The position numbers were made by a program, and so were the translations under genes. A DNA stretch of 64,000 bases from Escherichia phage vB_EcoM_DE17. Below are positions 3,571-5,536 of the stretch, piece after piece (within the stretch, counting starts at the first letter, position 1; each line of letters begins with the position of its first letter). Location of the stretch: sequence record OP595146.1; one strand, given 5' to 3'. The notes under the pieces were generated by a model. The model was given only the letters and a program-made list of their open reading frames with translations, did no database searches and was not told where the DNA came from.

Positions 3571-3942
3571 ATGAAGGCTAAGAGTGCAAAAGACTTTTAT
3601 TGCTTCCTACAATCCTATATCCACTCCGTGGAGAATGGTGAAAGATACAATCTTAACGATGTTATTGCATCACCTTTAACATGGAGAATGAGTAAATGGC
3701 CTGAAGAGGATATTACACCAACTGCCGAACAACCCACCTATAACCCAGAAATTAAACTCCCAGATTCAGATAAGTTGCTATACCCAATGTTCCACATTGT
3801 TGGGCTTGGTACGTTTCTTATGGATATCCAGTATGTAATTGGTAAGGGTTATAAAGTTGAAGGTATTGTTGTTAGTGATGTGTCTCCACAACATAAAGGC
3901 TATTTTAGATTAAACGCACGTTTAGAGGCTAAAAAGAAATGA
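3571..3942 (+). CDS. hypothetical protein, stand-alone paralog of the N-terminal domain of the next gene
   Basis: 123 aa; alignable by eye to residues 1-125 of the 377-aa neighbour (shared D-F-x-x-F, G-x-R-Y, P-L-T-W/Y, L-L-Y-P/S, M-D-I/L-Q-Y motifs). Confidence 0.65.
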   Translation: MKAKSAKDFYCFLQSYIHSVENGERYNLNDVIASPLTWRMSKWPEEDITPTAEQPTYNPEIKLPDSDKLLYPMFHIVGLGTFLMDIQYVIGKGYKVEGIVVSDVSPQHKGYFRLNARLEAKKK

Positions 3943-5072
3943 TTAAAGCAAAGACTTACCCAGACTTCAAAGAATTTGTAAAGGGTTTCATTGCAAATGT
4001 AAAGGCTGGTAAGAGGTATGATTTTAGAACATATCAAGAAGCTATTTTACCACTTACCTATAGTTCATATTGGCCTGAAGCTGATATCGCAGAAGTTGAG
4101 AAGTTTGACTACAAACCAGACTACAAAGTCCCTTTTAGTGATGATTTGCTTTACAGCATCGGTGCTCAAATGAGAACTTCTGACTTCTTCATGGATTTAC
4201 AATACGCAATTATCAATGGTAAAGACGTTGATACAGTTTATTGTGAATGGCTGGCAAGAGTTAAGCCTTTCTCAATGTTGAATGCTAAGCTGAAAGATGC
4301 TATTAAGCCACCAGCAATTACTCAGCAACCAACAGGCCAAACAGTCAATGAGGGCGGTACACTCACTCTAAGTGTTCTAGCAACTAACGCCACTGGCTAT
4401 CAGTGGAAGAAGGATGGTGAGGACATCCCCAGTGCCACTTCTGCAACTTACACAAAACAATCCGTAGCACCTTCTGACGCTGGTTCATACACTTGTGTTG
4501 TATCTGGAGAGGGTGGAACAAGTGTCACCTCAGATGCAGCAACGGTTACTGTTAACGCACTGCCTGTGATTACACAGCAACCTTCTAGCCAGACCATTAA
4601 TGAAGGTGGAAACATCAGTCTATCAGTGACTGCAACAGGTGCAACAGGTTACCAGTGGAAGAAAGATGGCTCTGACATCCCTTCAGCTACAAACGCTACC
4701 TATAGCAAGTCTGGTGCACTGCCAGCAGATGCAGGTTCCTATACTTGTGTTGTAACTGGTGCTGGAGGTTCTGTTACTTCTAACCCTGCAACAATCACGG
4801 TAAATGCTTTGCCAGTTATCACTCAGCAGCCAACCAATCAAGAAATCACTGAAGGTGATACCTTGACACTAAGTGTTGTGGCTACTGGTGCGACAGGTTA
4901 TCAGTGGAAGAAAGGTGAGGAAGTCATCCCAGACGCAACTGCTGCAACTTACACCAAAGAAGGTGCAACCACTGCTGACGCAGGAAGCTACACCTGTGTA
5001 GTTACTGGTGCAGGTGGCTCTGTGACATCTAATGCGGCAACAGTTACAGTTAACCCAACAGGGGAGGCATAA
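3939..5072 (+). CDS. Ig-like (I-set type) repeat protein with an N-terminal domain of unknown function
   Basis: 377 aa; three tandem ~82-aa repeats each containing GYQWKKDG and D-A-G-S-Y-T-C-V-V, the canonical immunoglobulin-fold motif also seen in phage Hoc-like decoration proteins. Confidence 0.8.
   Translation: MIKAKTYPDFKEFVKGFIANVKAGKRYDFRTYQEAILPLTYSSYWPEADIAEVEKFDYKPDYKVPFSDDLLYSIGAQMRTSDFFMDLQYAIINGKDVDTVYCEWLARVKPFSMLNAKLKDAIKPPAITQQPTGQTVNEGGTLTLSVLATNATGYQWKKDGEDIPSATSATYTKQSVAPSDAGSYTCVVSGEGGTSVTSDAATVTVNALPVITQQPSSQTINEGGNISLSVTATGATGYQWKKDGSDIPSATNATYSKSGALPADAGSYTCVVTGAGGSVTSNPATITVNALPVITQQPTNQEITEGDTLTLSVVATGATGYQWKKGEEVIPDATAATYTKEGATTADAGSYTCVVTGAGGSVTSNAATVTVNPTGEA
4314..5069 (+). 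repeat. three tandem ~245-bp coding repeats (Ig-like domains)
   Basis: Near-identical peptide segments PVITQQP...SYTCVV...TVNA repeated three times; the DNA is correspondingly repetitive. Confidence 0.8.
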
Positions 5073-5536
5073 TGCAACTCTCAAGAAAAGGTTTAGAGGC
5101 TATTAAGTTCTTTGAAGGTCTGAAGTTAGAGGCTTACGAAGACTCTGCCGGAATCCCAACAATCGGGTATGGTACAATCCGTATTGACGGAAAACCTGTT
5201 AAGATGGGTATGAAAATCACGGCTGAACAAGCTGAACAGTATCTTCTCGCAGATGTTGAAAAGTTTGTTGCAGCAGCGAACAAAGCTATCAAGGTTCCAA
5301 CTTCTCAGAACGAGTTTGATGCACTTGTAAGTGAAACATACAACATCGGTATCACAGCTATGCAGGATTCTACATTTATCAAGCGCCACAACGCTGGTAA
5401 CAAGGTAGGTTGTGCAGAATCTATGCAGTGGTGGAACAAGGTTACAGTCAAAGGTAAGAAGGTTACTTCAAATGGCCTGAAAAACAGACGCAGAATGGAA
5501 GCTGACATCTATCTTGACAGTGTATACCCAAAGTAG
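5072..5536 (+). CDS. lysozyme (GH24, T4 e-like endolysin)
   Basis: 154 aa; N-terminal EGLKLEAYEDSAGIPTIGYGT matches the T4 lysozyme catalytic region (Glu, Asp, Thr conserved). Start overlaps the upstream stop (TAATG). Confidence 0.85.
   Translation: MQLSRKGLEAIKFFEGLKLEAYEDSAGIPTIGYGTIRIDGKPVKMGMKITAEQAEQYLLADVEKFVAAANKAIKVPTSQNEFDALVSETYNIGITAMQDSTFIKRHNAGNKVGCAESMQWWNKVTVKGKKVTSNGLKNRRRMEADIYLDSVYPK

What the first reader, a model, noticed from the sequence alone, without database searches (positions are those of the whole stretch)
3571..5536. Ig-repeat protein sharing an N-domain with its upstream neighbour and overlapping the lysozyme gene
The 377-aa protein has three near-identical Ig-like repeats with the canonical D-x-G-x-Y-x-C motif. 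Its N-terminal ~125 aa is a paralog of the separate upstream ORF, and its stop overlaps the start of the GH24 lysozyme. Phage Ig-like domains usually decorate virions and bind carbohydrate, so the linkage suggests a surface-exposed or cell-wall-targeting module tied to lysozyme expression.
Basis: partly seen in the sequence, partly recalled or inferred. Interest (0 to 1): 0.5.

Follow-up and report, generated by a model that had tools for sequence, protein, structure and literature searches.

The report
Known Hoc-like capsid decoration gene
The Ig-repeat gene is the already published "Hex-Dec" head-decoration protein of Felix O1-like phages, which plugs into capsid hexamers and waves Ig domains outward; the only undescribed part is a small Ig-less copy of its capsid-binding domain encoded just upstream.

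Summary
The window is a Felixounavirus (Felix O1-like myophage). The described ORFs are real: a 123-aa ORF (3571-3942), a 377-aa ORF (3939-5072) and a GH24 endolysin (5072-5536). The 377-aa protein is the known Hoc-like capsid decoration protein. Its residues 1-131 show no difference from Bas63 Hex-Dec (PDB 9NCF chain S), and it matches Sf14 gp20 (9C2D chain S) at E = 2e-170. Published cryo-EM places the N-terminal domain as a monomer in the centre of the 60 pentamer-proximal hexamers of a T=9 head. The variable Ig number (1-4) and the position outside the structural module are also published. The "cell-wall-targeting module tied to lysozyme" has no support. "Near-identical" repeats is overstated: they are 71-74% identical in protein and 64-71% in DNA. 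I found no description of the upstream Ig-less paralog of the capsid-binding domain. It overlaps Hex-Dec (ATGA), is under purifying selection (dN/dS 0.12), and is present in four sampled lineages. It lacks both capsid-anchoring arginines, has been deleted in about 6-8% of relatives, and is absent from the published Felix O1 virion proteome. Its function is unknown.

The parts
3532..3547 (+). Terminator-like hairpin (AGGGGC-TGAT-GCCCCT followed by a T-rich tail) between the upstream 196-aa gene and the paralog. It marks the 5' edge of the three-gene unit.
   Evidence: scan; the sequence is. Conserved in phage mio and L025.
3571..3942 (+). Stand-alone, Ig-less paralog of the Hex-Dec capsid-binding domain (123 aa; phrog_4463; equivalent to Felix O1 ORF37, Bas63 bas63_0125 and VpaE1 ORF40).
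3925..3928 (+). GAGG Shine-Dalgarno-like motif for the Ig gene, inside the 3' end of the paralog gene. It is conserved in every junction variant compared; the stop/start overlap itself varies (ATGA in most, an 8-base overlap in two Suspvirus loci, a 1-base overlap in L035).
3939..4310 (+). Hex-Dec capsid-binding domain (CapBD, aa 1-124). Carries Arg79 and Arg107, the residues reported to salt-bridge to the major capsid protein in Sf14.
   Evidence: literature
4311..4562 (+). Ig-like repeat 1 (84 aa, I-set/Ig_3). Corresponds to Bas63 Ig1.
4563..4811 (+). Ig-like repeat 2 (83 aa). Corresponds to Bas63 Ig2.
4812..5072 (+). Ig-like repeat 3 (86 aa plus stop). Corresponds to Bas63 Ig4, the terminal repeat. 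Its last codons hold the GGAGG Shine-Dalgarno motif of the lysozyme gene.
5072..5536 (+). GH24 (T4-lysozyme-type) endolysin, 154 aa. Glu15/Asp24/Thr30 have the same spacing as T4 lysozyme Glu11/Asp20/Thr26.
   Evidence: searches (PF00959, E=8.6e-40; phrog_7), sequence. The T4 lysozyme residue numbers are from my own knowledge.
5546..5563 (+). Terminator-like hairpin (AGGCTCC-TTCG-GGAGCCT followed by TTTTTATTTT) directly after the lysozyme gene. It marks the 3' edge of the three-gene unit.

Best explanation
The 377-aa gene encodes the Ounavirinae 'Hex-Dec' protein, a Hoc-like, non-essential head decoration. Its N-terminal ~120-aa capsid-binding domain (CapBD) inserts as a monomer into the centre of the 60 pentamer-proximal hexamers of the T=9 capsid. 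It is held partly by Arg79 and Arg107 salt bridges to an Asp of the major capsid protein. The three Ig (I-set-type) domains form a flexible fibre pointing away from the head. That fibre probably mediates weak adhesion to surfaces or glycans, or virion-virion contacts, as proposed for T4 Hoc. Repeat number changes by in-frame gain and loss of internal repeats. The gene is transcribed late, in a compact unit of CapBD-only paralog, Hex-Dec and endolysin with overlapping stop and start codons. Shown: identity with the solved proteins, conservation of the contact arginines, synteny and repeat variation. Taken from the literature on homologues: capsid location, stoichiometry, dispensability and late timing. 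Inferred: the adhesive role of the Ig fibre. The upstream 123-aa gene is a diverged duplicate of the CapBD that has lost the capsid-anchoring residues. My best guess, with low confidence (about 0.3), is that it is a late, non-virion or only transiently bound head-assembly accessory. It might occupy hexamer centres in proheads or modulate Hex-Dec loading, rather than being a second stable decoration.
For: Identity. PDB sequence search: 9NCF_S (Bas63 'Immunoglobulin-like domain protein', 460 aa) E=3.5e-270, with no difference in residues 1-131; 9C2D_S (Sf14 gp20) E=2e-170. The window is a Felixounavirus.

Location and mechanism in homologues. Hex-Dec CapBD sits in hexamer centres at facet edges only, with 1-4 Ig domains, encoded more than 10 kb from the structural module. 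Sf14 gp20 is a monomer, its CapBD is the N-terminal 118 aa, Arg79 and Arg107 contact MCP Asp221, and it was detected by MS. Felix O1 gp36 was found in the virion by MS with 14 peptides and 44% coverage (gene identity).

Sequence features here. Arg79 and Arg107 are invariant in 25 distinct CapBD sequences, including this window. Among the 32 complete Hex-Dec genes compared, 4 have one Ig, 13 have two, 12 have three and 3 have four. The usual patterns are 1-4, 1-2-4 and 1-2-3-4.

Dispensability and timing. Bas63 gp124 was more needed on S17-1 than on the other three hosts tested. Felix O1 ORF36 and ORF37 are maximally expressed at 60 min.

Paralog. 36% identity to the CapBD. The AF2 model's only Foldseek matches below E=0.8 in the PDB are 9ncf_S and 9c2d_S, TM 0.59-0.60. 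dN/dS is 0.12, against 0.05 for the CapBD. It is present in Felixouna-, Moogle- and Suspvirus and in a more distant 87-kb metagenomic phage. Gly replaces Arg79 in all 25 paralog sequences; Q/H/N/K replaces Arg107; KGY replaces the KPF/KPY motif shared by the family members that carry a C-terminal extension. It is not among the 17 Felix O1 virion proteins. It has been lost through a start-codon change plus an internal deletion of about 225 nt in phage mio and L025. About 16-20 of 252 records lack it.
Against: Nothing here tests this particular phage's virion; the major capsid protein gene is not even in the window. The adhesive function of the Ig fibre is an analogy with T4 Hoc and is untested in any Ounavirinae. 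For the paralog, 'not in virions' rests on negative evidence. The Felix O1 list required at least 25% coverage and by the authors' account dropped two likely virion proteins. Icosahedral averaging would blur a monomer sitting on a true threefold axis. The AF2 model is only moderate (pLDDT 66.6). I have no direct evidence for any interaction partner.
Confidence: 0.9

Rival explanations
1. The Ig-repeat protein is a tail protein, as most GenBank records and PHROGs call it ('tail protein', 'major tail protein', 'HK97 major tail subunit').
For: phrog_3995 is labelled 'tail protein' (E=2.2e-209), and there are hits to major-tail-protein PHROGs. Many records carry that annotation.
Against: The tail-protein PHROG hits cover only the Ig region (aa ~96-295). 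Cryo-EM of two homologues puts the N-domain in capsid hexamers, and the Bas63 authors state explicitly that the tail annotation is wrong. PDB chains 9NCF_S and 9C2D_S come from capsid reconstructions.
Confidence: 0.02
2. The Ig protein, or the pair, is a cell-wall or envelope-targeting module that works with the endolysin. This is the first reader's idea: coupled expression delivers a binding module for the lysozyme.
For: A CapBD-family gene lies directly upstream of the endolysin throughout Ounavirinae, including Yersinia phage P778, Pectobacterium phage Arno162 and metagenomic relatives. In Felixounavirus the stop and start codons overlap.
Against: The protein is a stoichiometric head component. 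The whole neighbourhood is syntenic, not just this pair. The overlap is replaced by a 1-2 nt gap in most Moogle- and Suspvirus loci. The lysozyme gene has its own strong GGAGG Shine-Dalgarno motif. In Felix O1 the lysin peaks at 25 min and the Ig gene at 60 min. From general knowledge, Gram-negative GH24 endolysins normally work without binding modules.
Confidence: 0.04
3. The paralog is a second, Ig-less capsid decoration that plugs the 20 true-threefold hexamers which Hex-Dec cannot occupy.
For: It has the same fold as the CapBD. It is expressed late together with Hex-Dec. It has different residues exactly at the two positions where the Sf14 authors say the threefold hexamers present a shifted Asp221. 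Distant relatives have a CapBD with no Ig domain (P0060) as their only family member, so an Ig-less CapBD can be the functional form.
Against: [quoted passage not shown] The paralog is not in the Felix O1 MS list, which did detect proteins of 9.7-13.7 kDa. It is not among the extra proteins named for VpaE1 virions (indirect, because the table is an image). It lacks the KPF motif kept by the members that carry a C-terminal extension.
Confidence: 0.15
4. The paralog is a decaying, functionless duplicate.
For: It has been lost by deletion in about 6-8% of sequenced relatives, which are viable phages. It evolves about twice as fast as the CapBD.
Against: dN/dS is 0.12 over 355 pairs. The ORF is intact at 122-124 aa in the other 32 of 34 sources, across three genera plus a more distant lineage. 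35 alignment columns are conserved (at least 90%) in both families with the same residue. The Shine-Dalgarno motif and the overlap with the Hex-Dec start are conserved.
Confidence: 0.1

Closest known systems
Bas63 (Escherichia phage JohannRWettstein) Hex-Dec, gp124, PDB 9NCF chain S (PMC12609058)
   Same: Same genus and same gene position: paralog, then Hex-Dec, then endolysin. Residues 1-131 show no difference, and Ig repeats 1, 2 and the terminal repeat are 92-93% identical.
   Different: Bas63 has four Ig domains and this phage has three; the Bas63 Ig3-type repeat is missing here.
Shigella phage Sf14 gp20 (Mooglevirus), PDB 9C2D/9C3A chain S (PMC11821841)
   Same: N-terminal CapBD plus three Ig domains. 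Arg79 and Arg107 are conserved. Detected in virions by MS. Mooglevirus loci show the same gene order, with the paralog upstream.
   Different: Different genus. In Mooglevirus loci the CapBD is about 80-87% identical to the window's, and the Ig domains are more diverged. In most of those loci the stop codon is separated from the lysozyme start by 1-2 nt rather than overlapping it.
[quoted passage not shown]
   Same: Works alike: a monomer at hexamer centres, a string of Ig-like domains projecting outward, and dispensable. The Ig region hits 'Hoc-like head decoration' PHROGs (phrog_2973 E=2.2e-43, phrog_4069 E=3.4e-39).
   Different: The domain order is reversed: Hoc has its Ig domains at the N-terminus and its capsid-binding domain at the C-terminus. 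According to the Bas63 authors the CapBD is larger, topologically distinct and pseudo-C2 symmetric. Hex-Dec occupies only a subset of hexamers. It is an analogue, not a family member.
T5 pb10 decoration protein (PDB 5LXK, 8ZVI)
   Same: N-terminal capsid-binding domain followed by an Ig-like domain. The Ig domains match at E of about 3e-12. Domain order is the same as in Hex-Dec (Sf14 paper).
   Different: It has one Ig domain only, and the matches to the pb10 chains cover only the Ig region (query residues 132-206). The attribution of 5LXK to pb10 is from my memory plus the label 'Decoration protein'.

Membership tests
Ounavirinae Hex-Dec / Sf14 gp20 hexamer-centre decoration protein | N-terminal ~120-aa capsid-binding domain homologous to the solved CapBD | tested here: met
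   no difference from 9NCF_S in residues 1-131; 9C2D_S E=2e-170
Ounavirinae Hex-Dec / Sf14 gp20 hexamer-centre decoration protein | Arg79 and Arg107, reported to salt-bridge to MCP Asp221 | tested here: met
   both invariant in 25 distinct CapBD sequences, including the window; residue roles from PMC11821841
Ounavirinae Hex-Dec / Sf14 gp20 hexamer-centre decoration protein | C-terminal string of 1-4 Ig-like (I-set/Ig_3) domains | tested here: met
   three domains of 83-86 aa
Ounavirinae Hex-Dec / Sf14 gp20 hexamer-centre decoration protein | Encoded outside the structural module, immediately upstream of the endolysin | tested here: met
   The capsid-protein motif search found nothing in the window, and no ORF in the list was identified as a capsid gene.
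Ounavirinae Hex-Dec / Sf14 gp20 hexamer-centre decoration protein | Physically bound as a monomer at the centre of pentamer-proximal hexamers of a T=9 capsid | not testable with these tools
   Shown only for Bas63 and Sf14 by cryo-EM
Ounavirinae Hex-Dec family, applied to the 123-aa upstream paralog | CapBD fold | tested here: met
   36% identity; best Foldseek PDB matches are 9ncf_S and 9c2d_S, TM about 0.6; model quality is moderate
Ounavirinae Hex-Dec family, applied to the 123-aa upstream paralog | Capsid-anchoring Arg79 and Arg107 | tested here: not met
   Gly in 25 of 25 paralogs at the Arg79 position; Q/H/N/K at the Arg107 position. The KPF motif is replaced by KGY.
Ounavirinae Hex-Dec family, applied to the 123-aa upstream paralog | Ig-like extension | tested here: not met
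   the ORF ends after the CapBD and has no Pfam hit
Ounavirinae Hex-Dec family, applied to the 123-aa upstream paralog | Presence in purified virions | not testable with these tools
   The literature is negative: Felix O1 ORF37 is absent from the MS list, and no density was reported at unoccupied hexamers
T4 Hoc family | N-terminal Ig domains followed by a C-terminal Hoc capsid-binding domain | tested here: not met
   The domain order is reversed. No Hoc chain is among the 60 best of 86 PDB sequence matches. The Bas63 authors report a distinct CapBD topology.
Phage tail proteins (as annotated in many records) | Homology to a tail protein outside the promiscuous Ig domain | tested here: not met
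   matches to major-tail-protein PHROGs cover the Ig region only. The N-domain matches only phrog_3995 and phrog_4463.
GH24 phage lysozyme (downstream gene 5072-5536) | PF00959 domain with the Glu/Asp/Thr catalytic triad spacing of T4 lysozyme | tested here: met
   PF00959 E=8.6e-40 against a cut-off of 22.3 bits. Glu15/Asp24/Thr30 were read from the sequence; the T4 lysozyme numbering is from my own knowledge.

The most novel reading that the evidence does not exclude
The translationally coupled, Ig-less CapBD paralog (3571-3942) is an undescribed functional partner of the Hoc-like decoration system. It could be a transient prohead hexamer-centre binder, or a factor that sets where and how much Hex-Dec loads, which would help explain why only 60 of 80 hexamers are decorated. 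Alternatively it could be a second decoration of the 20 threefold hexamers that icosahedral averaging and stringent proteomics have missed. Neither structural paper on these phages contains the word 'paralog', and I found no paper that mentions it.
Probability: 0.3. Interest if true: 0.45.

Novelty: already known. Interest (0 to 1): 0.2.

Why it matters
For the Ig-repeat protein, the value is mainly corrective. Most database records still call it a tail protein, although two 2025 cryo-EM studies show it is a head decoration. It is also a natural display scaffold with a variable number of Ig modules. The small open point is the conserved CapBD-only paralog. If it acts on capsid hexamers or on Hex-Dec, it would be a simple handle on how a decoration protein picks a subset of quasi-equivalent hexamers. 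Existing maps, mass-spectrometry data and knockouts could test this.

Tried and rejected
1. Programmed -1 frameshift fusing the paralog to Hex-Dec. The Hex-Dec frame is -1 relative to the paralog, and T-AAA-AAG lies at 3930-3936. Rejected: the A-run is not conserved (GCTAATAAATGA and GCTAAGAAATGA in other junction variants, a different junction in L035), whereas the GAGG Shine-Dalgarno motif is conserved.

2. Checking the MCP Asp221 contact in this phage. No major capsid protein gene was found in the window; the structural module lies beyond position 1.

3. Looking for the paralog in published virion data.
- The Sf14 supplement lists no non-structural hits.
- VpaE1 Table S2 is stored as an image.
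- The PhageMaP and Bas63 supplements are not held.
- PhageMaP's text never mentions g125.

4. NCBIfam, PADLOC and Pfam searches for the paralog and its neighbours gave nothing.

5. Tandem duplication in a Big_2-type relative (L037). The upstream 205-aa ORF is unrelated.

6. The word-indexed homologue search for the paralog returned only stand-alone forms. The exhaustive profile search was needed to see the whole family, which has only 12 clusters.
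Full report
WHAT IS THERE. The region holds three closely packed + strand ORFs: 3571-3942 (123 aa), 3939-5072 (377 aa) and 5072-5536 (154 aa). The junctions are ...AAGAAATGATT (ATGA overlap) and ...GGGGAGGCATAATGCAA (TAATG overlap). Terminator-like hairpins lie just before the first gene (3532-3547) and just after the third (5546-5563), so the three genes look like one compact unit. The 377-aa protein has three Ig domains: Pfam Ig_3 E=1e-32, Ig_2 5.9e-29 and I-set 8.1e-25. DAGSYTC occurs at aa 180, 264 and 347. The repeats are 83-86 aa long. 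They are 71-74% identical in protein and only 64-71% in DNA, so 'near-identical' is an overstatement and the duplications are old. Each repeat has the F-strand Cys but no B-strand partner. The third ORF is a GH24 lysozyme (PF00959, E=8.6e-40). The first ORF is a true paralog of the N-terminal ~120 aa of the second: 36% identity, E=8e-18.

WHOSE GENOME. The segment is 95.6% identical to Salmonella phage UAB_Phi87, and 227 phage records match it, nearly all Felixounavirus. Over 25 kb the best record covers 82% of the query at 91.9% identity. The window is therefore a Felix O1-like myophage not identical to any deposited genome.

WHAT THE Ig PROTEIN IS. A PDB sequence search gives 9NCF chain S (E=3.5e-270, no difference in residues 1-131) and 9C2D/9C3A chain S (E=2e-170).
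- 9NCF is the icosahedral capsid of phage Bas63 and 9C2D that of Shigella phage Sf14.
- The Bas63 paper (PMC12609058) names the protein Hex-Dec. [quoted passage not shown] It is followed by unresolved Ig domains and is encoded more than 10 kb from the structural module.
- The Sf14 paper (PMC11821841) describes gp20 the same way. It detected the protein in virions by MS and reports Arg79 and Arg107 salt-bridged to MCP Asp221.
- Felix O1 gp36 ('tail protein', 31.6 kDa) was found in virions with 44% coverage as early as 2010. ORF36 is the Hex-Dec gene, ORF35 the lysin and ORF37 the paralog.
- PhageMaP found Bas63 gp124 more needed on strain S17-1 than on the other three hosts tested.
Both arginines are present here and invariant in 25 distinct CapBD sequences. 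The protein, its location, its domain logic and its repeat variability are all published.

I compared the window with 33 loci from Felixouna-, Moogle- and Suspvirus.
- The order 196-aa protein (phrog_4034), paralog, Hex-Dec, lysozyme holds wherever the genes are present.
- Among the 32 complete Hex-Dec genes, 4 have one Ig, 13 have two, 12 have three and 3 have four.
- Typed against the four Bas63 repeats, the usual patterns are 1-4, 1-2-4 and 1-2-3-4. Internal repeats come and go in frame while the first and last types are usually kept. The window is 1-2-4.
- The overlap with the lysozyme start is typical of Felixounavirus but becomes a 1-2 nt gap in most Moogle- and Suspvirus loci.
- A more distant 87-kb metagenomic phage keeps all four genes.
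- Still more distant Ounavirinae have a single CapBD-family gene directly upstream of the endolysin and no paralog. These are Yersinia phage P778, Pectobacterium phage Arno162 and metagenomic contig L038.
The decoration-endolysin adjacency is therefore old, but the whole neighbourhood is syntenic. In Felix O1 the lysin peaks at 25 min, while ORF36 and ORF37 peak at 60 min. I see no evidence that the Ig protein serves the lysozyme or targets the cell wall.

THE FAMILY OF THE N-DOMAIN. A profile of the paralog plus the CapBD, searched exhaustively against 1.84 billion representative proteins, found only 12 clusters. The CapBD is fused to I-set Ig domains, to Big_2 or Big-like domains, or to a Lys/Ser-rich tail, or it stands alone. 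It is a narrow, modular capsid anchor.

THE PART NOT DESCRIBED: THE PARALOG. Neither structural paper contains the word 'paralog', and PhageMaP does not mention g125. The facts established here are:
- Fold. Its only PDB sequence matches are the two CapBD chains. A moderate AF2 model (pLDDT 66.6) finds only those two by Foldseek, TM about 0.6.
- Selection. dN/dS is 0.12, against 0.05 for the CapBD. The ORF is intact at 122-124 aa in 32 of 34 sources.
- Divergence. Gly replaces Arg79 in all paralogs. Q/H/N/K replaces Arg107. KGY replaces the KPF/KPY motif shared by the family members that carry a C-terminal extension. The paralog is thus the derived copy.
- Coupling. The GAGG Shine-Dalgarno motif for Hex-Dec lies inside its 3' end and is conserved in every lineage; the ATGA overlap is present in most.
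- Loss. About 16-20 of 252 records have only the Hex-Dec copy. In mio and L025 the remnant shows a lost start codon and an internal deletion of about 225 nt. The gene is therefore dispensable for plaque formation.
- Timing. It is expressed late in Felix O1.
- Virion. It is not in the Felix O1 virion list, which did include proteins of 9.7-13.7 kDa. It is not among the extra proteins named for VpaE1 (indirect). No density was reported at the undecorated hexamers of Bas63.
- Linkage. Paralog alleles track the upstream gene rather than the CapBD. For example, in L006 the paralog is 81% identical and the CapBD 99%. This implies recombination between the two genes.

HOW IT MOST LIKELY WORKS. For Hex-Dec my confidence is about 0.9. 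The CapBD plugs the centre of the 60 pentamer-proximal hexamers through Arg79 and Arg107, and three Ig domains project as a flexible fibre. The function is probably Hoc-like adhesion or aggregation control, which is inferred rather than shown. For the paralog my confidence is about 0.3. I favour a late, non-virion or transiently bound head-assembly accessory. The rivals are a second decoration on the 20 threefold hexamers (0.15), a functionless duplicate (0.1), and some unrelated new function. A -1 frameshift fusion was considered and rejected.

COMPARISON AND NOVELTY. The Ig protein is a member of the Hex-Dec/gp20 family; every sequence-level criterion is met. It is an analogue of T4 Hoc, not a member, because the domain order is reversed and the CapBD topology is distinct. 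Novelty for the finding as stated is 'already known'. The residual novelty is the undescribed CapBD-only paralog, which is of modest interest.

VERDICT. Interest is 0.2. The paralog is worth a line in someone's follow-up on Ounavirinae head assembly.

Noticed in passing
window 5072-5536: The Bas63 homologue of this endolysin (bas63_0123, 98% identical in protein) is reported by PhageMaP as a trigger of the Ec67 retron. Expressing g123 was toxic only in cells carrying Ec67 (bioRxiv 10.1101/2024.10.10.617714). I matched the gene number to the GenBank locus tags.
   Followed up: partly
window 5978-6373: Several relatives annotate the homologue of this 131-aa ORF as 'D-alanyl-D-alanine carboxypeptidase'. 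It has no Pfam, NCBIfam or PADLOC hit here and matches only phrog_4348 of unknown function. The annotation looks unfounded.
   Followed up: partly
window 3939-5072 (Ig region, aa 133-371): After the two phage capsid chains, the best PDB sequence match of the Ig repeats is the 5898-aa 'grappling hook' protein GhpA of the predatory bacterium Aureispira (9FLP, E=4.4e-85, 12 stretches). That is far better than any eukaryotic Ig protein. It hints at exchange of this Ig repeat type between phages and bacterial surface proteins.
   Followed up: no
window 3571-3942 versus 3939-4310; loci L006, L007, L009 and others: Paralog alleles fall into groups of about 99%, 91% and 85% identity that track the upstream phrog_4034 gene. 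The adjacent CapBD stays at 95-100%. This implies a recombination boundary at or near the paralog/Hex-Dec junction.
   Followed up: partly
GenBank GU169904.1 (hit H68, positions 143190-143558): The 147-kb record called 'Staphylococcus phage SA1' carries a Felix O1-like paralog/Hex-Dec segment, with the paralog 86% identical. VpaE1 ORF40 is 99% identical to the SA1 protein. The record looks like a chimeric or contaminated assembly.
   Followed up: no
window 445-1860 (-) and 1942-2313 (-): A 471-aa protein is annotated in relatives as vWFA or 'RNA-binding protein'; its counterpart in distant relatives carries DUF2828 and DUF7788. Next to it is a DUF5681 protein, transcribed divergently from the decoration/lysis unit. 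In relatives a tRNA cluster lies just beyond.
   Followed up: no
window 2933-3523: The 196-aa phrog_4034 protein always precedes the CapBD-family gene(s), even in distant Ounavirinae that lack the paralog. Its distant homologues carry a faint Pfam hit to PF26097 (Phage_Inh_N). Its function is unknown.
   Followed up: no
loci L037, L041; proteins P0057-P0061: Metagenomic relatives fuse the same capsid-binding domain to Big_2 or Big-like domains or to a Lys/Ser-rich tail instead of I-set Ig domains. The anchor is a swappable module.
   Followed up: partly
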